Assembly (NCBI GenBank): GCA_963772365.1
Contig: CAVYXA010000005.1
Coordinates: 64,001-128,000 of the forward strand
Origin: an uncultured Verrucomicrobiae bacterium
Lineage (GTDB): Bacteria; Verrucomicrobiota; Verrucomicrobiia; Chthoniobacterales; UBA10450
Direction: 5' to 3'
Length of the DNA stretch: 64,000 nucleotides
A program made the position numbers. This document shows, piece by piece, positions 12,001 through 21,000 of this stretch. Positions within the stretch are counted from its first letter, which is position 1, and every line of letters begins with the position of its first letter.

Positions 12001-15000
12001 CGACCTCGTACCCCAAATGGTCCATACCGATGAGCTGGGCGGATTTCAGCTGCTCGAGATCCGGTCGTCGCTTCCAGACGAGCTGCTCATGTATGCGGAC
12101 AAGCTATCAATGGCCCACAGCTTGGAGGCGCGTGTGCCGTATCTCGACCGGACCGTGGTGGAATACGTCCAGAGATTAAACGCCGATCTCAAGATTCGGA
12201 ACGGCAGCCGGAAATGGCTCCACCGGCAGGTCTGCGCGAAATATTTGCCGCGCCGGATTCTCAAGGGAAAGAAGCGTGGCTTCGCCGTAAACGTGGTGGA
12301 CGATTGGTTTCGCTCATCGCTGAATGGGAAATTCCAGGAATCGCTGCTCGACGAAGGTTCGCTCATGTTCGGCCTGCTCAAGTCCGGAGCGATACGGGAA
12401 CTGGTGAACGACCATCAATCCGGGCGTCAGGACAATCACAAGGTGCTGTTCAGCCTGGTGATGTTCGAGCAGTGGCTGCGCAGCAAAACATCACTTGCTG
12501 GCAAAAATCAGTAGGACGGATGAAATCTGCAATCAACAAGGCGTTTCTTTTTGCTTCCTATGGTTTCCCGCGGGCAATCCTTGCGAGGACCATTCATTTC
12601 CCCTTACTGGCACCGTTTTATCATCTGGTTAGTGATGATCACCCGCCACACATTAAGTATTTATTTCGTTATCGGACGATTGCCGAATTCAAAAGGGACA
12701 TAGAGTTTTTCTTACAAGATTACCACCCGATCAGTCTTGATGAAATCCTTCTACACATTAGAACGGGAAAAGCTCTGTCCCGAAAAAGCTTCTTTCTCTC
12801 TTTCGACGATGGACTACGCGAGATTCACGAAGTAATTGCACCGATTCTGAAGGAAAAAGGAATTCCGGCGACTTTCTTCGTGACAACCGCAACGCTCGAC
12901 AACGCCGACATGATCTACAGGCACAAAGCGAGCCTGATCGTTGATCAACTGATGAGAGTACAACAACAAAACATCGCAGAAGTGAAAAGAGTCCTGGGGA
13001 AAAGAGGAATCTACAATGACGATCTTGCGGCTGCAGTCCTTGGCGTAAAGTACAGGGACCGTGAAGTGCTCGATGACGTAGCACAATGCATCGAATTAGA
13101 CCTTAGAGAATACCTGGCTCGACGACGGCCCTACGCAAGCACTGGCGAAATCAAAAAGTTGATCTCAGAAGGGTTTACCATTGGTGCACACAGCGTTGAT
13201 CACCCGTTTTATCCAGAATTGCCCGTTGATGATCAATTGCGACAGACCAACGAAAGTCTCGAGATTGTCACCCGGCTATTTGGGCTTTCCTACAGAGCTT
13301 TCGCTTTTCCCTTCGGGGATAATGGAGTTCCAAAGCGATTTTTTAATCAAGTCCTGGCAGAAAACGCAGCCGATGTCCTGTTCGGTAGCAGCAGCTCATT
13401 TTGGAACGACGAATATTATCCGTTCGCTGTTCAGAGGCTCGGTATGGAGAGCGGATTTCATAGAGCGGCGGATAATCTGCGCGTCGCTGAGATCAAGTTC
13501 GGACTAAGAGTGATGATTGGCAGGTCGAACGTTAGAAGATCGAGTGGTAGAAATTAAGCAATACACACTGGCCGATTTGAGCGAGCTGGTGCACTCGAAC
13601 AGTTTTTGGAATGGAGATTTGATTCCAATTACAAAGCATCGCGCATTGTCCCAAGTCAAAAACCCACGCGCCCACCCGGAAGACGTTGTTTTGCTTGTCG
13701 CCCGAGACGGGGACACAATTTGTGGATTTACCGGTGTGTTGCCTGACCTCATTTTCTTGCCGGAAGAAACGCTCAGAGTAGGATGGCTTACGGCATGGTG
13801 GAGGAAACCCGGTTCACGATATGCAGGGATAGGGTCGAAGCTTCTGATGAGGGCGTTAGAGCTTTATCAGGGAGCAATTTGCGTGGAACCGCCTTCAGAG
13901 TCTGCCAGGAAGGTCCTGGAGAGGTCAGGACAATTCGTAACCCTGCAGGAGAACACGGAGGTGCGAGCGATCATAAGAGTGAATACGCGCTCTATTCTTT
14001 CTCGAAAGATTCCTGCATTGAAGAAATTCGGATTGTTTCTTGGACTGCCCGATAGTCTGGCGAACATTTTTTGCCGAGCGAGATTGCGATTTTGGACGGC
14101 GCGGCATGGAATCTCCGGAGCGCTGCGGGTCGAGTATATTACTGCAGTCGACCCTGAAACAGCCGATTTCGTAAACAAGCTCCGGGACCATGATTTGCAC
14201 AGAATGGGTGCGCCCGAGTTAAACTGGATTGCCCAGAGTCCGTGGATTTTAACGGCGCCTTTGAAGGAGGGAACGGTAAAGAACTACTATTTTTCAGCGA
14301 CCGCTAAAGAATCACTTTGTTTGATGATAAAGATTCTCGAATCTAAGGGCTCTCTGATTGGTTTTGCGATCCTGACGTTAATCAATGGGCACTTAAGAGT
14401 CCCATACTGTTACATGCAGCCCGAGCATGCCGATGAAGTATTTCGAGTCATCGGCGAACATGCGGTCGCCCTGCGAGCCGAAAGTCTCACCCTTGGTCGA
14501 TCGGAATTAAAAGCGAGTATGCGTCGCCTGAGGTTTCCATGTCTCCTAAGGAGCCAGAGGCTGCGCCGGTGGACGATTGGGAATCTGTACGCTGGCAAGG
14601 TCACACGCTGTGCTCAAATTCAGGATGGAGCCGGAGACTGCGCATTTTTTTAGAGTTCTGAAACCGGCTTTCGGCGGGTTAGCGGAGCCAGCGGATCTGT
14701 GTTGGAAACGGTCGGAAGCACTGAATAATAAGCCGTAGGGCTTTTGTGAATCGGTGAGTGACGTGTCTAATAACTCTGCAAATGTCAGAATTTTTGAGGA
14801 GACAATCCGCTTCAGGGGCGTCCCTGTGCGGCGAACCGCTGTGTTGGTTGATCATCAAACATTCATCATTTCGGGAAAGTTTCTGAGAACGGCAAGCTTG
14901 AAAAGAGAGTGGCAGGAGGATGTGAGCGACCCGAGAACGGTCATTCAAGCACTAACGAGTGACCTTGCGAGACCCGATCTGCTGAAGTTCTGGCAGAGGG

Positions 15001-18000: not shown

Positions 18001-21000
18001 CTGTGGCCTGGAACACAAAACTTTTCCCGTTCGTCCCGATTTTTTCTCCGACTTCAGATCTCTTGTCGATCAAACCGTTTACCTCAGCGACGGCTATCTG
18101 GGAGTTCTCGGCGCACATGAGATTTACTTTAACGGGCGGGCGCGCCAGTTGGCGCCCGTGCGAATCACCGGAAATTTCGGAAGCGAGATCCTTCGAAACG
18201 TTTCGACGTTCAAGTCGCGTCGGCTTTCACCTGAACTGATCAATCCGGATGTTCTTCGAGATACAGGTGACGTAGCGTCTGCTCTCGATCGAAACCGATG
18301 TAACCCGGTCAGTTTTGCGGCATTCCGGGAAATACCGTGGAAAAGATTTGGAATCCTGAAGGCGGGAAGTTCTCAATGTGCTTTTCGAACTCCTTATCTT
18401 GATAATCGACTTGTAGGCCTGGCCTATCGAGCCCCTGAAAGCCTCCGCAACTCCCCGTATCCGGCGCTGCGTCTTGTGGAGAAGAACCATCGGGGTCTTA
18501 CTCAAATTCCGACAGACATGGGGTTCACTATATATAATCGGAAGGCTCCTCTGTTTCGAAATGCGTTTTTCAAGGCGACCTTCAAACTGGATTATCTCTA
18601 CAATGATGGTCTGCCTCACTTTCTATCTTCGCTAGACCCATTTTTTAGGGGAGTGCATTTGAGGTCAGGTCTTTTGGGCCTTCACAAATTCCTTCATTAC
18701 CGAACATGGTTTCAGCATGAGCTTGCGAACTATATTGTTGAAAGTTTGGAAGGCGCGCGAACAAACGCGGACTGTTTCTGGAATCCTCGTTTTCTTGAAC
18801 ACGTTGGGATAGGCCATACGCGCGGCCGAAAGAACTACCTCCAGGAGATCGACATCGTGCTGACCTTGCAAGCTGTCGAGCGACTGCTTTTTACAGATCT
18901 GCCTCGCTCCATTAATCCAGTTCCGACTTCCATCCGATCGGTTGAACTGGCAACAGCACATTAGCGGTCGTATGTTTATTGCGTCTGACTTTGTCGTAGT
19001 TCACTTGTCGAAAACTGGCGGCACATTCGTAGAACGAACGCTGCGCGAGATGTTTTGTTCTAGCGCACTGGGCCGCAAGATCCACCGGCTAAAGACAAGA
19101 TATGGCGTGCCGATCCCTTTTTATCCTTATCGATACGACGAACAATGCGATCAACACGCTCTCTGTAATGACATTCCCGAATCGCAGCGTGGCAAGACGA
19201 TTATGTCATGCATTCGTAATCCATTCGATCTGTACGTGTCGGAATATACCTTTGGATGGTGGAAGAAACATCCGGGAAAATGGTTTCACGATCTCCCCGC
19301 GTTCGAGAAGCTTTATCCTGATTGGCGTAGCTTTAGTTTTGGAGAGTTCTTCTCAATATCCTGCCGCCATGCATCGTGGGTTCAACGGACTTTGGCGGAG
19401 TATCCTAAAGCCAATCGGCTAGGCTGGTTTTCACATAAATTCGTCTACTACTACTGTCGCGATTACGACTATGTTTTCCAAGCGGTCGAGGATCCCGATC
19501 TTTTCTTCAATCGGGTCAAAGAAACCATGTATCCGGTTCACTTCATCCATACAGAACAACTAAACCGCGAGCTCTACGCATTTCTTCTGGCCAAGGGTTA
19601 CGCCGAGGAGCGAATCGCTTCTATTCCGACAAAAGAGAAAATCAACACGAGTCGAAAAGATTACAATTGGCGGAAGTGGTATGACGAGGAATTGCGGCGT
19701 GGGATTGAAGAGAAAGATGCATTGATCTTTCGATTGTTTCCCGAGTTTCAGTTTTAGGGTTCGGCGAACGGTTCGTGGTTGTCAGCAAATGAGATCGGTC
19801 AACGGATTGAAATCAGAGGCGGTTTCGCAATGATGAAATCCAAGAGATTCTCAGAGAAGAGATTTCTGATCATCGGAGGCACAAGCAGGGCCGGAACAAC
19901 CGCTGTATTCAATTATCTCGCCGGTCACCCGGAAATGTGCGCCTCGATCGCCAAAGAGACGCGGTTCTTTCTGGATCGCGGTTACCCGCTCCGCTCGGAG
20001 AAGCGATATGCAAGAGACGGGGCGGAAGCGTACCTCTCGTTCTTTGAAAACAAAGCAGAGCGAAACGGAGGACGCTGGTGTTTGGAAGCTACCCCGGACT
20101 ACCTTTACTCTCAGGGTACCGCTAATTTAATTCATGAAACCCTGCCGAACGTTTCCTTCATTTTTATCTTACGCGATCCGGTTTCAAGACTGATTTCTTT
20201 TTATCGGTTTGGTCGGCAGCTGAATGAAATCCCTTCCCGGATGAGCTTTGATCAGTACGTCGAACTGCAAAAAAATGACTCCTGCAAGTCGCTCTTGGAT
20301 AAGTATCGGCACCCTGCCTTTTGCGCCCTGCCGCATGGCCGTTACTCGGTCTATTTGAAGCCATATCTCGAGTTGTTTGGGAGATCGGCGATCCACATAG
20401 AATTTTACGAGGATCTGAAACGCAATCCGACCAGCTTCGTGCAATCGATTTGCCGGTGGGCCGGGATAAACGAGAGCTATTTCCATCATCGACCTCTCGA
20501 AGTCGCGAACAAGAGCATGAACGTGCGGAGCCAGCGTTTGAATCGCACATACTTTGAAGTGAAACGAAGAGCTCTGATTTTTAAGCGCCGTAATCCGCGG
20601 TTGTGGTCGATTCTCCATGCGGCGTTGCATCGAGCAGACGTCGGCTACAGGAAGATGAACATCAAGAAGCCGAACGAGGTCACAATGTCTCTTTCGACGA
20701 AGGAGCTACTGTCAAACTATTACCGGGAGGAGCCTGCACAGCTTTCGGAGCTTTTGGGTATTGAAATCCCATGGTTGGAAAAGATGCCAGCCGATTCAGC
20801 GGACAGGCGGGCAGCTTCCTGAACAGAGCACCAAAGAAATGAGCGCCGTAGTCGAGACCGCCGAGCCTGTGCTGACCAAAATCAGCCGGCAAAGCATCAT
20901 CGTGTTTCTGACCAGAGCCGTGGCGGTGCTGCTGGGAATCGGCTCAACTTTTCTTCTGGCCAGGATTCTGGGACCCTCTGGATTTGGAAAGTTTCGGCTT

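What a model noticed while it worked through the whole genome (the two positions that open the first line are those of the whole stretch)
14754..18964. Anticodon-less tRNA-Ser look-alike next to a FemX-like transferase in the exopolysaccharide locus
Inside the large PEP-CTERM/exosortase-type polysaccharide gene cluster lies a 92-nt gene (C5 80873-80964, +) with the acceptor stem, D arm, long variable arm, T arm and G73 of tRNA-Ser, but whose anticodon arm is a closed 7-bp helix capped by a GNRA tetraloop, so it has no anticodon; it sits between an unannotated FemX-like protein (g03176), a sulfotransferase and an AsnB-like amidotransferase (g03178). I read it as a dedicated, non-decoding seryl carrier: charged by SerRS (which does not read the anticodon) and used by the FemX-like aminoacyl-tRNA transferase to put serine on the polysaccharide, kept off the ribosome by design. 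New would be a tRNA stripped of its anticodon for a biosyntheti [...]
Evidence so far: ARAGORN calls it tRNA-??? 'anticodon gaaa', no Rfam tRNA hit at gathering cut (rna.tsv, call 3); all four normal tRNA-Ser (gct, gga, tga, cga) exist elsewhere. Sequence: ...GCAGCTC-GAAA-GAGCTGC.... Orthologues: 6 further genomes of 301 Chthoniobacterales searched by BLAST and 22 loci in GTDB genomes by pattern. In 22 distinct sequences the two pairs that close the would-be anticodon loop are standard pairs in 21, with compensatory changes (pair 1: CG 14, TA 4, TG 2, GC 1, CA 1; pair 2: CG 12, TA 5, TG 5); loop GCAA 19, GAAA 3. Context: a g03176 homologue within 2.5 kb on the same strand in 19 of 22 pattern loci and a g03178 homologue in 17 of 22. 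g03176: TIGR03019 FemAB/PEP-CTERM family E 1. [...]
(Added by a program. Inside this text positions count along the whole contig: contig position 64,001 is position 1 of the stretch shown here. "Call 12" and the like, gene names such as g00115 and contig names such as C1 are that model's own, and its searches are not shown. The text may have been shortened before it was handed on; [...] marks where a part breaks off. The agent that wrote the report below was given it as the finding of a first reader that could run no searches.)

Follow-up and report, generated by a model that had tools for sequence, protein, structure and literature searches.

The report
Anticodon-less serine tRNA beside FemX-like enzyme
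A conserved gene in a slime-polysaccharide operon makes a serine-tRNA look-alike whose anticodon loop is sealed shut, almost always next to an enzyme of the kind that takes amino acids from charged tRNAs, so it is most likely a private amino-acid carrier for decorating a sugar polymer, not for making protein.

Summary
Window 16873-16963 (+) is a tRNA-Ser-shaped RNA: G1-C72, G2-C71, A3-U70, G73 and a 7-bp variable arm. Its anticodon arm is a 7-bp helix capped by GAAA. The genome has four normal tRNA-Ser genes.

Two searches that assumed nothing about that arm, plus BLAST, gave 120 distinct relatives. They come from Verrucomicrobiota, Acidobacteriota, Alphaproteobacteria and other phyla. None has a 5-bp stem with a 7-nt anticodon loop. 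The extra pairs covary.

The neighbour g03176 models with confidence (pLDDT 93.5) as a tandem-GNAT fold. Its best matches are aminoacyl-tRNA-dependent transferases (Sbb17/Sba18, FemX, MprF). A family member lies within 5 kb, on the same strand, in 40 of 61 genome loci.

New here: other clades of this enzyme family carry their own odd tRNA genes. These are anticodon-less Ala types (G3:U70, A73), and Thr and Gly types that keep the anticodon. The anticodon is therefore lost only where the synthetase ignores it.

Charging, expression and the acceptor are untested. An Afipia variant has no partner enzyme. I found no description in print. Verdict: a new variant of the non-proteogenic tRNA idea, of high interest.

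The parts
16873..16963 (+). tRNA-Ser-shaped RNA without an anticodon (91 nt up to G73; no CCA encoded here)
   Evidence: Orthologues. Covariation.
16900..16917 (+). Closed 'anticodon' arm: 7 bp (16900-16906 with 16911-16917) capped by the GAAA tetraloop (16907-16910)
   Evidence: Read. In alignment A4 the helix is 100% paired, and 6 of its 7 pairs change on both sides.
16919..16936 (+). Long variable arm: 7 bp plus the AGCG loop, the main serine identity feature
   Evidence: 4 of 7 pairs show changes on both sides. Identity rule from PMC9976931 (passages).
16938..16955 (+). T arm with one extra nucleotide on its 3' strand (GGAGG-TTCGAAT-CCTTCC). It is best read as 5 Watson-Crick pairs with a bulged U at 16953, which is A in some relatives.
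   Evidence: There are 14 nt from the T loop to the discriminator in all 57 distinct genes. Normal tRNA-Ser genes have 13.
14754..15755 (+). g03176: FemX-like tandem-GNAT protein, the predicted aminoacyl-tRNA transferase (333 aa)
15809..16810 (+). Sulfotransferase lying between the transferase and the RNA. It is present in this clade only, in 8 of 69 family loci.
17090..18964 (+). g03178: AsnB-like protein that starts MPGIVG, so it lacks the N-terminal Cys nucleophile. Probably an ATP-dependent amide ligase, not a glutamine amidotransferase.
   Evidence: A g03178-type gene lies just downstream of the family gene in 34 of 69 loci (my count from the rows).
10624..12514 (+). True AsnB/XrtA-type amidotransferase (starts MCGITG), apparently split by a frameshift (10624-12033 and 11756-12514)
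   Evidence: An orthologue of 69-84% identity lies within 3 kb of the family gene, mostly just upstream, in many loci.
12214..14653 (+). Polysaccharide deacetylase (12214-13557) and a GNAT-domain protein (13517-14653) upstream in the same operon
18942..23165 (+). Downstream operon genes: an unknown ORF, a second sulfotransferase (19779-20822), a Wzx-type flippase (20761-22344) and the CysQ PAP phosphatase (22371-23165)
29432..41747 (.). Exosortase system that frames the locus: XrtC-like exosortase (29432-30406), a VPDSG-CTERM protein (30509-31258, minus strand), the export protein, PrsK, PrsR and PrsT

Best explanation
The RNA is a dedicated, non-decoding aminoacyl carrier: a tRNA-Ser paralogue that stays chargeable but cannot read codons.

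**Proposed steps**
1. It is transcribed within the polysaccharide operon and cut out by the normal tRNA-processing enzymes. CCA is added where it is not encoded.
2. The cell's single SerRS charges it with serine. SerRS reads the long variable arm, G73 and the acceptor stem, and ignores the anticodon.
3. The anticodon arm is sealed into a 7-bp helix with a GNRA loop, so the RNA cannot decode. The T stem carries an extra nucleotide and may also weaken EF-Tu binding.
4. The neighbouring FemX-like tandem-GNAT enzyme (g03176) takes the seryl group and puts it on an amine or hydroxyl of a sugar precursor of the sulfated exopolysaccharide. The Cys-less AsnB-like ligase g03178 probably acts in the same step series.

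**Shown here:** the structure and its covariation, the identity features, the fold of g03176, the gene linkage, and the amino-acid-type-specific pairing of enzyme clades with tRNA types.

**Inferred:** expression, processing, charging, exclusion from EF-Tu, transfer, and the acceptor.
For: 1. **The closed arm is the rule.**
- Genome set: 72 genes and 57 distinct sequences, from BLAST and a T-arm/acceptor pattern. None has a 5-bp stem with a 7-nt loop.
- Metagenome set: 73 parsed genes of 80 held loci, 67 distinct and 63 of them new. Loop lengths are 4 nt in 57, 3 nt in 1, 5 nt in 2, 6 nt in 5 and 8 nt in 2.
- The designs differ: 7 bp + GNRA, 8 bp + CUUG/UUUA, and a mini hairpin. All abolish the anticodon loop.

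2. **Covariation (A4, 29 sequences).** 98.5% of cells are paired, against 91.2% in shuffles (0 of 500 reach the observed value). The covariation score is 0.312, against at most 0.117 when partners are slid. In the arm helix, 6 of 7 pairs change on both sides.

3. **The RNA looks chargeable.**
- G1-C72 and G2-C71 are invariant; A3-U70 in 28 of 29; G73 is fixed; the variable arm is kept with compensatory changes.
- CCA is encoded in 43 of 61 distinct genes with their flanks.
- There is one SerRS in the genome.
- Identity rules are taken from PMC9976931 (passages).

4. **It is an extra gene.** The four normal tRNA-Ser genes and selC are present.

5. **g03176 has the right fold.**
- The AF2 model has pLDDT 93.5.
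- The top Foldseek matches are aminoacyl-tRNA-dependent peptide synthases Sbb17/Sba18 (E 8e-12), FemX of Weissella and the MprF aa-PG synthase domains.
- Of 75 family members, 33 hit PF13480, 23 hit PF02388 FemAB and 4 hit LPG_synthase_C.
- Some members are fused to GT1 or GT2 glycosyltransferases.

6. **Linkage.**
- All 11 genomes of the order with the RNA have the gene on the same strand, 29 nt to 4.4 kb away. The gene occurs in only 41 of 401 genomes.
- It lies within 5 kb in 40 of 61 genome loci, and within 1.5 kb in 51 of 80 metagenome loci.

7. **Amino-acid logic.**
- Other clades of the family are followed by Thr-type (11 in the order sample, plus the second gene of the tandem pair in G322/L138), Gly-type (1) and anticodon-less Ala-type (7) tRNA genes. 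The Ala types have G3:U70, A73, and 6-7 bp with a 3-4-nt loop.
- The Thr and Gly types keep G35 U36 and C35 C36, which ThrRS and GlyRS need.
- The Thr types are extra copies beside canonical tRNA-Thr genes.
- In the tandem paralogues of G322/L138, the first is followed by a Ser type and falls in a Ser clade. The second is followed by a Thr type and falls in the Thr clade.

8. **Precedent.** Orf11, a FemX-like enzyme, transfers glycine from Gly-tRNA to an amino sugar (PMC12945691, passages). Staphylococcal non-proteogenic tRNA-Gly serves Fem transferases (PMC7826273, passages).
Against: - No expression, processing or charging data exist. No sequencing run could be listed, so nothing can be said either way.
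- **Loci without the enzyme.** 21 of 61 genome loci have no family gene within 5 kb. Of these, 16 are the Afipia-type variant or its like. Three Afipia genomes and one further alphaproteobacterial genome have no family member at E <= 0.001. The four do carry 8-9 other PF13480 proteins each, elsewhere in the genome.
- **Enzymes without the RNA.** 20 of 69 full-length family genes have no tRNA-like gene on the same strand within 3 kb. Of these, 17 lie in loci where default ARAGORN found none at all in the 2.6-17 kb held; L122 and L128 have the Ser type about 4 kb away, and T. gabretensis (L157) about 10 kb away. One clade of 12 is among the 17. The enzyme therefore does not always need a private tRNA.
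- **Weak sequence membership.** g03176 itself fails the Pfam and TIGR03019 thresholds. TM-scores to FemX-like structures are moderate, at 0.50-0.56. A tandem-GNAT acetyltransferase (VipF) is also among the matches. Catalytic residues were not mapped.
- The acceptor is unknown.
- The T-arm irregularity as a block to EF-Tu is my inference only.
- The 26-mer pattern fixes the T arm and acceptor, so members with other T arms were not sampled.
Confidence: 0.7

Rival explanations
1. It is a processing or punctuation element. On this reading the tRNA shape only recruits RNase P and RNase Z to cut the long operon transcript, or to stabilise the downstream message. The RNA is never charged, and losing the anticodon merely keeps it harmless.
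For: - It lies inside an operon, with no sigma-70-like promoter and no same-strand terminator between 16400 and 17300.
- In many loci it sits in the short gap between two co-directional genes.
Against: - RNase P needs only the acceptor/T domain. Yet the D arm, the long variable arm (with compensatory changes), G73 and an encoded CCA (43 of 61) are all kept.
- The RNA type (Ser, Ala, Thr, Gly) follows the enzyme clade.
- The Thr and Gly types keep exactly the anticodon bases that their synthetases read (PMC9976931, passages).
Confidence: 0.1
2. It is a regulatory decoy, a sensor or a fixed cofactor. It might bind SerRS, the transferase or another protein to couple polysaccharide synthesis to serine or charging status. 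Or it might stay bound to the enzyme as a scaffold or prosthetic arm, not turning over as a free carrier.
For: - The Afipia-type copies have no transferase nearby and lie just downstream of a PilZ-domain gene in conserved synteny.
- A tRNA held as a prosthetic arm has been reported for ergosteryl-aspartate synthase (PMC13219428; seen only in a search listing).
Against: - The same identity-element logic argues that charging is what selection preserves.
- In 40 of 61 genome loci and 51 of 80 metagenome loci the neighbour is an enzyme with an aminoacyl-tRNA transferase fold.
- A bound-cofactor version differs from the main reading only in kinetics.
Confidence: 0.1
3. The charged RNA is used mainly by the Cys-less AsnB-like enzyme (g03178 type). 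For example, that enzyme could adenylate a uronic-acid carboxylate and join it to the free amine of the seryl group. g03176 would then act on something else, or only in a later step.
For: - The g03178 type starts MPGIVG and has no Cys nucleophile.
- It follows the transferase and RNA directly in 34 of 69 loci, including Thr-, Ala- and Gly-type loci (my count).
- An AsnB-family gene of either type lies within 3 kb in 59 of 69.
Against: - None of the aminoacyl-tRNA-dependent enzymes met in the papers read here is of the AsnB family.
- The RNA also occurs next to g03176-family genes that have no g03178-type gene within 3 kb on the same strand. In rows such as L112, L119 and L125 the only AsnB-family neighbour is the MCG-type one, which lies upstream.
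- The tRNA type tracks the g03176 tree. I did not build a g03178 tree, so this point is one-sided.
Confidence: 0.07
4. It is a decaying tRNA-Ser pseudogene, or the remnant of an integration site, kept by linkage.
For: In seven Afipia-type loci a normal tRNA-Ser(tga) gene lies within about 5 kb.
Against: - There are 120 distinct sequences from at least five phyla, with an intact cloverleaf and compensatory changes. 98.5% of cells are paired, and 0 of 500 shuffles reach that value.
- The T arm and acceptor differ from those of the neighbouring normal tRNA-Ser.
Confidence: 0.02

Closest known systems
Non-proteogenic tRNA-Gly isoacceptors (NP1-3) of Staphylococcus aureus and S. epidermidis with FmhB/FemA/FemB (PMC7826273, passages read)
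   Same: They are extra tRNA paralogues, charged by the normal synthetase. EF-Tu and the ribosome use them poorly, and a Fem-family aminoacyl transferase prefers them. Their distinguishing features lie in the D and T arms.
   Different: - The staphylococcal tRNAs keep a UCC anticodon and an anticodon loop.
- They serve peptidoglycan, not a polysaccharide operon.
- That paper states that such tRNAs had been detected only in those two species.
- Here the anticodon loop is abolished, the gene sits next to its enzyme, and the system spans several Gram-negative phyla.
FemX of Weissella viridescens, MprF aa-PG synthases, and Sbb17/Sba18/Orf11 glycyl transferases of streptothricin-type pathways (PDB 1NE9, 4V34, 9WQX; PMC12945691, passages)
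   Same: They share the tandem-GNAT fold. Orf11 puts an amino acid from aa-tRNA on an amino sugar, which is the chemistry proposed here.
   Different: - Sequence identity is only 10-15% and TM-scores are 0.50-0.56.
- g03176 fails the Pfam and NCBIfam thresholds.
- In the passages I read, no private tRNA gene is mentioned for these enzymes.
TIGR03019, the FemAB family XrtA/PEP-CTERM system-associated protein
   Same: It is a FemAB-like protein of exosortase-type polysaccharide loci, and its function is likewise only predicted.
   Different: g03176 scores 20.9 bits against a cut-off of 260. It belongs to a separate, unnamed family with 906 cluster representatives at E <= 0.001.
tRNA-like domain of tmRNA
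   Same: It is chargeable without an anticodon, because AlaRS reads G3:U70. The same logic applies to the Ala-type relatives found here.
   Different: tmRNA has an mRNA part, works on the ribosome with SmpB and binds EF-Tu. The genome's tmRNA gene lies elsewhere.
Allo-tRNAs and other irregular tRNAs of soil bacteria (PMC5389517, passages)
   Same: They have a serine-identity body with a long variable arm and occur in Acidobacteria and Proteobacteria. Some are thought not to be used in translation.
   Different: Allo-tRNAs have an 8/4 or 9/3 acceptor branch and real, diverse anticodons. Here the branch is 7/5 with one extra T-stem nucleotide, and there is no anticodon loop.

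Membership tests
Elongator tRNA-Ser (Rfam RF00005 tRNA) | Cloverleaf with a 7-bp acceptor stem, a D arm, a T arm with a TTCRA loop, a long variable arm and G73 | tested here: met
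   The one exception is an extra nucleotide on the 3' strand of the T stem.
Elongator tRNA-Ser (Rfam RF00005 tRNA) | 5-bp anticodon stem with a 7-nt loop, U33 and a serine anticodon | tested here: not met
   The arm is 7 bp plus GAAA. The positions that would be 32/38 and 33/37 pair and covary. None of 120 distinct relatives has the canonical loop.
Elongator tRNA-Ser (Rfam RF00005 tRNA) | Score at or above the Rfam gathering threshold | tested here: not met
   The RNA is not listed among the 46 RF00005 matches in the genome. In the scan of 16500-17300 the clan's listed match is tRNA-Sec, at 37.3 bits against a gathering score of 47.
tRNA-Sec (RF01852) | 8-bp acceptor stem, UCA anticodon, score above gathering | tested here: not met
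   37.3 bits, below the gathering score of 47. The acceptor stem is 7 bp. The genome's selC gene is at C3:484007-484104.
Non-proteogenic (non-decoding) tRNA for a Fem-type transferase | An extra paralogue beside a full decoding set, with the synthetase identity elements kept | tested here: met
Non-proteogenic (non-decoding) tRNA for a Fem-type transferase | Charged in vivo, weak binding to EF-Tu, and preferred by the transferase | not testable with these tools
   This needs biochemistry. Only gene linkage and the irregular T stem bear on it.
FemABX / dupli-GNAT aminoacyl-tRNA transferases (for g03176) | Two GNAT-like domains in one chain, with a fold closest to FemX or MprF | tested here: met
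   The model has pLDDT 93.5. Foldseek ranks 1-9 and 11-20 are aa-tRNA-dependent enzymes, with probability 1.00 and TM-scores of 0.49-0.56.
FemABX / dupli-GNAT aminoacyl-tRNA transferases (for g03176) | Match to PF02388, PF13480 or TIGR03019 at the curated cut-off | tested here: not met
   P0001 has no Pfam family at E <= 0.01 and scores 20.9 bits on TIGR03019 against a cut-off of 260. Relatives match weakly: 33 of 75 to PF13480 and 23 of 75 to PF02388.
FemABX / dupli-GNAT aminoacyl-tRNA transferases (for g03176) | Catalytic and tRNA-binding residues equivalent to those of FemX; aa-tRNA-dependent activity | not tested
   No residue-level superposition was available. The nearly invariant residues of the family are listed.
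Asparagine synthase B-type glutamine amidotransferase (for g03178) | N-terminal Cys nucleophile | tested here: not met
   g03178 starts MPGIVG. The other AsnB gene of the operon starts MCGITG. The GATase_7 and Asn_synthase domains are present.

The most novel reading that the evidence does not exclude
This is one member of a modular system of private tRNA cofactors, spread across at least five bacterial phyla.

Each clade of an unnamed FemX-like transferase family, usually with a Cys-less AsnB-like ligase, has co-evolved with its own ribosome-excluded tRNA gene:
- Ser and Ala types, stripped of the anticodon.
- Thr and Gly types, which keep it only because their synthetases need it, and which carry a bulged T stem.

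Together these cassettes would write a small amino-acid code onto exopolysaccharides.

The sealed anticodon arm would be the first natural case of a tRNA that selection has made orthogonal to translation while it remains a synthetase substrate. The Afipia-type mini version would show the same carrier recruited by a different, still unknown partner.
Probability: 0.5. Interest if true: 0.92.

Novelty: new variant of a known kind. Interest (0 to 1): 0.86.

Why it matters
- **A new use of tRNA.** Aminoacyl-tRNAs are known to feed cell-wall, lipid and antibiotic pathways. The only tRNAs reported as set aside for such work are the staphylococcal tRNA-Gly species, and these still look like decoders.
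- **A natural separation of charging from decoding.** A widespread tRNA gene with the anticodon loop deleted by design would show that selection can separate the two roles completely.
- **A route to an unexplained decoration.** Some bacterial surface polysaccharides carry amino acids whose biosynthetic route is, to my recollection, mostly unexplained (no call supports this). This system would offer one.
- **Hidden genes in annotation.** Genome annotation either misses these genes or mislabels them. ARAGORN called some Cys, Phe, Ala, Pro or Leu, and the Thr types pass as ordinary tRNA-Thr.
- **Tools for synthetic biology.** The system would hand over natural tRNA scaffolds that are charged by host synthetases but invisible to the ribosome.
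- **It can be tested.** Cultured carriers exist: Terracidiphilus gabretensis S55 and several Afipia species.

Tried and rejected
**Searches that gave nothing usable**
- **Sequencing runs:** none was listed for window 14754-18964, and no RNA holder was listed. Expression could not be examined.
- **The search for related loci with family alignments A2 and A3:** both stopped with 'no stretch conserved enough'. I used a DNA pattern for the RNA instead.
- **ARAGORN at an 80% threshold on loci without a tRNA call:** it gave only junk calls inside genes. I dropped it.
- **RF00005 listing for five genomes:** the list was cut before the relevant rows. I replaced it with a BLAST search.
- **Thr-type T-arm/acceptor pattern in 401 genomes sampled across the phylum:** no match. 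Only about ten of these genomes were from the own order. The Thr type is so far seen only in the order-level sample (the 11) and the tandem locus of G322/L138.
- **PDB search by sequence with the family profile:** only weak single-GNAT hits (E 4e-4).

**Candidates checked and set aside**
- **The 367-aa protein next to the RNA in T. gabretensis:** hhalign shows no relation to the family. The family gene lies about 10 kb further on.

**Readings rejected**
- **Quadruplet (4-base) anticodon in an 8-nt loop, as ARAGORN prints it:** the flanking positions pair and covary, and position 33 is not a conserved U.
- **tRNA-Sec:** the score is below gathering, and selC lies elsewhere.
- **Pseudogene:** excluded by the covariation.
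- **att-site duplicate in Afipia:** the T arm and acceptor differ from the neighbouring tRNA-Ser.

searches were corrected.

Full report
**1. The observation**

Window 16873-16963 (+) reads as follows:
- GGAGAGG, the acceptor 5' strand
- TG
- GCTGAGTGGTTTAAGGC, a D arm of tRNA-Ser type
- A
- GCAGCTC-GAAA-GAGCTGC
- T
- ATACGGC-AGCG-GCCGTAT, the variable arm
- C
- GGAGG-TTCGAAT-CCTTCC, the T arm
- CCTCTCC, the acceptor 3' strand
- G, position 73

ARAGORN reports it as tRNA-??? with a four-letter 'anticodon' gaaa. The strand folds at -43.9 kcal/mol with z -3.87, and 0 of 200 shuffles fold as well.

In the list of the Rfam scan the only tRNA-clan match is tRNA-Sec, at 37.3 bits against a gathering score of 47. 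Overlapping lower-scoring matches to families of the same clan are left out of that list. The RF00005 scan of the whole genome lists 46 tRNAs, and this one is not among them.

The genome (6 contigs, 90% complete) has tRNA-Ser gct, gga, tga and cga, plus selC and a tmRNA. It has one SerRS gene. Aligned with the genome's own tRNA-Ser genes, the body is of Ser type throughout, except for the anticodon arm.

**2. Is the closed arm real, and how general is it?**

I avoided searches that presuppose the tetraloop.

*BLAST over the order.* I ran BLAST with the whole RNA over 401 genomes of the order.
- The 30 best places became loci.
- L001-L011 (E <= 1.2e-15) are the RNA and 10 orthologues.
- Of L012-L030 (E >= 8.7e-12), 18 carry normal tRNA-Ser genes and L017 gave no call.
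- Eight of the 10 orthologues have 7 bp plus GNRA.
- L005 has lost one base (5-6 bp plus a 5-nt loop). L008 has a bulged helix with GAAAA.

*Pattern on genomes.* I scanned one genome per species (185,579 species) for a 26-mer covering only the T arm and the acceptor 3' strand. This gave 61 loci.
- Together with the BLAST set this makes 72 genes and 57 distinct sequences.
- None has a 5-bp stem with a 7-nt loop.
- 29 have exactly 7 bp plus 4 nt: GCAA 23, GAAA 3, GUAA 1, ACAA 1, CUUG 1.
- The Acidobacteriaceae, including cultured Terracidiphilus gabretensis S55, have 8 bp plus CUUG or UUUA and a short D arm.
- Afipia species have an 81-nt form with the arm cut down to a roughly 4-bp mini hairpin. 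This includes the cultured species A. massiliensis, A. birgiae, A. broomeae and A. clevelandensis.
- A few sequences have loops of 5, 6 or 8 nt on stems of 6-7 bp.

- 80 loci were held and 73 could be parsed.
- 67 are distinct, and 63 of those are new.
- Hairpin loops are 4 nt in 57, 3 nt in 1, 5 nt in 2, 6 nt in 5 and 8 nt in 2.

*Covariation.* On the 29 sequences of the 7+4+7 layout (alignment A4), one search gave:
- 98.5% of cells are paired, against 91.2% in shuffles (0 of 500 reach the observed value).
- The covariation score is 0.312, against at most 0.117 for slid partners.
- In the arm helix, 6 of 7 pairs change on both sides.
- The two pairs that close the would-be loop are CG 17/UA 6/UG 6 and CG 16/UA 9/GC 2/UG 2.

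These 29 were chosen because they have that layout. Their pairing rate is therefore by selection, but the diversity of pair types is not.

*Caveat.* The pattern fixes the T arm and acceptor. It samples one lineage of such RNAs, and not all that may exist.

**3. Signs that the RNA is built to be charged**

- G1-C72 and G2-C71 are invariant, A3-U70 is present in 28 of 29, and G73 is fixed. The variable arm keeps 7-8 pairs through compensatory changes.
- CCA follows G73 in 43 of 61 distinct genes with their flanks. It is not encoded in this window, and 28 of 48 tRNA genes in this genome also lack it.
- The review by Giegé and Eriani (PMC9976931, passages) makes these points. [quoted passage not shown] G1-C72 and G2-C71 are conserved in bacterial tRNA-Ser. 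G73 is a determinant.
- The T arm has one nucleotide more than normal on its 3' strand: 14 nt against 13 from the T loop to the discriminator. The variable base (U or A) is best read as a bulge between five Watson-Crick pairs.
- My suggestion that this weakens EF-Tu binding is inference. It rests on the statement in PMC7826273 (passages) that EF-Tu affinity for the tRNA body is set almost wholly by the first three T-stem pairs.

**4. The neighbour g03176**

- P0001 (window 14754-15755) has no Pfam family at E <= 0.01. It has only a weak TIGR03019 match: E 1.5e-4, 20.9 bits, cut-off 260.
- It belongs to a large unnamed family. 1256 proteins match at E <= 1e-5, and none of the 120 listed has a precomputed Pfam domain. 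There are 906 cluster representatives at E <= 0.001.
- Of 75 diverse members, 33 touch PF13480, 23 touch PF02388 (FemAB) and 4 touch the MprF C-terminal family.
- With that alignment AlphaFold gives pLDDT 93.5 and pTM 0.88.
- Foldseek against the PDB ranks the aminoacyl-tRNA-dependent peptide synthases Sbb17/Sba18 first (E 8e-12 to 3e-11, TM 0.55-0.65). FemX of Weissella follows, then the aa-PG synthase domains of MprF. One tandem-GNAT acetyltransferase (VipF) is interleaved.
- Two longer family members are fused to GT1 or GT2 glycosyltransferases. This ties the family to glycan synthesis.
- Orf11, a FemX-like enzyme of the BD-12 pathway, transfers glycine from Gly-tRNA to an amino sugar (PMC12945691, passages).

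**5. Linkage**

- The family occurs in 41 of 401 genomes of the order.
- All 11 genomes with the RNA have it, on the same strand, 29 nt to 4.4 kb from the RNA.
- In the 61 genome loci a family gene lies within 5 kb on the same strand in 40.
- In T. gabretensis it lies about 10 kb away in the same locus.
- In the 80 metagenome loci a piece of such a gene lies within 1.5 kb in 51.

**6. The new result: a family of private tRNA genes**

I fetched 35 further stretches around the family's other matches in the order: 32 in the 30 genomes without the RNA, and 3 around extra copies in G252 and G274. ARAGORN found 15 tRNA genes there, each directly after the family gene.

*Thr types (11).*
- They have anticodon CGU or UGU, G1-C72, C2-G71 and U73.
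- They have a bulged U in the 5' strand of the T stem, and often no GG in the D loop.
- They are extra copies, 78-81% identical to the canonical tRNA-Thr genes of the same genomes.

*Gly type (1).* It has UCC, U73, G1-C72, C2-G71 and G3-C70.

*Ala types (3 here).*
- They have G3:U70 and A73. The anticodon arm is 6 bp plus UUUA or UUCG.
- Four more turned up in the pattern and further genome loci. L136 and L143 have 7 bp plus GCAA, and L114 has 7 bp plus UUU.

So the anticodon is lost in the Ser and Ala types and kept in the Thr and Gly types. By the review passages, AlaRS relies on G3:U70 and SerRS on the variable arm. ThrRS and GlyRS need anticodon nucleotides.

*Tree.* I built a maximum-likelihood tree of 69 full-length family proteins.
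- The tRNA type is clustered: 13 changes, against 32.6 for shuffled labels.
- One clade of 15 (support 100/100) holds 11 Thr, 1 Gly and 3 with no tRNA gene.
- The window's protein sits in an all-Ser clade of 8 (100/100).
- Kin share labels, so this shows clustering and not co-evolution as such.
- A cleaner case is the tandem pair in G322/L138. The first paralogue is followed by a Ser type and falls in a Ser clade. The second is followed by a Thr type and falls in the Thr clade.

**7. The rest of the cassette and the locus**

- An AsnB-family gene lies within 3 kb in 59 of 69 family loci.
- Two kinds occur. One is a well-conserved true amidotransferase (MCGITG start; 69-84% identical between loci), usually upstream. 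The other is the divergent g03178 type, directly downstream of the transferase and RNA in 34 of 69 (my count).
- g03178 starts MPGIVG and so lacks the Cys nucleophile. I infer that it is an ATP-dependent amide ligase, not a glutamine amidotransferase.
- The window's locus also encodes two sulfotransferases, CysQ, a deacetylase, a GNAT protein, a Wzx flippase, glycosyltransferases and a UDP-sugar dehydrogenase. It further holds an XrtC-like exosortase with a VPDSG-CTERM protein, plus PrsK, PrsR and PrsT.
- There is no sigma-70-like promoter and no same-strand terminator next to the RNA. It is probably cut out of the operon transcript.

**8. What does not fit**

- Sixteen of the 61 genome loci are the Afipia type or its like. 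This count includes a 'Pirellulales' MAG contig that shares Afipia synteny.
- These loci have no family gene nearby. Three Afipia genomes and one other alphaproteobacterial genome have none at all at E <= 0.001.
- Those four genomes each carry 8-9 other PF13480 proteins, none of them near the RNA.
- In 15 of these loci a homologous open frame ends just upstream of the RNA. In A. broomeae (L137) that frame is a PilZ-domain protein. Seven loci also hold a normal tRNA-Ser(tga) within about 5 kb. I cannot explain this variant.
- Conversely, 20 of 69 family genes have no tRNA-like gene on the same strand within 3 kb. Of these, 17 lie in loci where default ARAGORN found none in the stretch held, and they include a clade of 12. 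For L122 and L128 the Ser type lies about 4 kb away, and for T. gabretensis about 10 kb.

**9. Literature**

Seven full-text searches found no description of an anticodon-less tRNA gene linked to a Fem-like enzyme or to a polysaccharide locus. Passages read in PMC7826273, PMC7609411, PMC8007984, PMC5389517, PMC12945691, PMC9976931 and PMC12419801 found none either.

PMC7826273 states that additional non-proteogenic tRNAs had so far been detected only in S. aureus and S. epidermidis.

Supplements were not read, and subscription journals are not covered.

Two earlier notes of this scan bear on the case. e1-4283467 describes the same kind of RNA in another genome. e1-3208214 describes a FemAB-like protein fused to a SerRS arm. 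Both are unchecked leads, not independent evidence.

**10. Verdict**

It remains inference for every biochemical step.

It is a new variant of a known kind: non-proteogenic tRNA plus an aa-tRNA transferase. Its features have no published precedent that I could find.

Noticed in passing
L033, L046-L048, L050, L052, L055-L059 (about 8900-9100 or 7800-7950 of each); L010 2642-2716; L138 6077-6151: These are extra 'tRNA-Thr' genes (CGU/UGU) directly after g03176-family genes. They have a bulged U in the T stem, a 4-nt variable loop and often no GG in the D loop. Canonical tRNA-Thr genes exist elsewhere in the same genomes. Annotation would pass them as ordinary tRNA-Thr.
   Followed up: partly
L039 7959-8028(-), L045 8890-8961, L049 7932-8002(-), L114 3354-3428, L136 502-577, L143 9487-9562(-): These are anticodon-less tRNA-Ala look-alikes with G3:U70 and A73. 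The arm is 6-7 bp plus UUUA, UUCG, GCAA or UUU. They lie next to other clades of the same enzyme family. ARAGORN calls one of them tRNA-Lys(ttt).
   Followed up: partly
L043 9009-9083: This is a tRNA-Gly(UCC) look-alike with U73, G1-C72, C2-G71 and G3-C70. It has the same bulged T stem as the Thr types and lies after a family gene of the Thr clade.
   Followed up: no
L125 2003-2092 and 3081-3171; L114 3354-3428 and 4936-5026: Some loci hold two private RNA genes. In L125 two Ser types flank one transferase gene. In L114 an Ala type and a Ser type share one locus.
   Followed up: no
L099, L101, L102, L105, L110, L115, L117, L120, L132, L137, L141, L145, L154, L156 (RNA ending near 5026): The Afipia-type RNA is 81-85 nt long and its anticodon arm is reduced to a roughly 4-bp hairpin. 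It sits in conserved synteny after a homologous open frame, which in L137 is a PilZ-domain gene. No g03176-family gene was found in the genomes searched. Seven of these loci hold a normal tRNA-Ser(tga) within about 5 kb.
   Followed up: partly
L100 (contig labelled Pirellulales MAG): This contig carries the Afipia-type RNA and the same flanking genes as the Afipia loci. It is probably mis-binned.
   Followed up: no
window 10624-12514: The true AsnB/XrtA-type amidotransferase is split. The frame that starts with MCGITG ends at 12033 after drifting into unrelated sequence, and the C-terminal part continues in another frame (11756-12514). This is either a frameshift or an assembly error.
   Followed up: no
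window 34857-36970: The PrsK histidine kinase is read as two overlapping ORFs. 34857-35498 matches profile positions 30-188, and 35462-36970 matches 194-679. This may be a frameshift.
   Followed up: no
window 4551-4967 and 26276-26824: Two genes for four-helix-bundle proteins (TIGR02436; weakly like the DGR protein Avd) lie inside the polysaccharide locus.
   Followed up: no
P0210 and P0265 (representatives): These family members are fused at the N terminus to GT1-type or GT2-type glycosyltransferase domains.
   Followed up: partly
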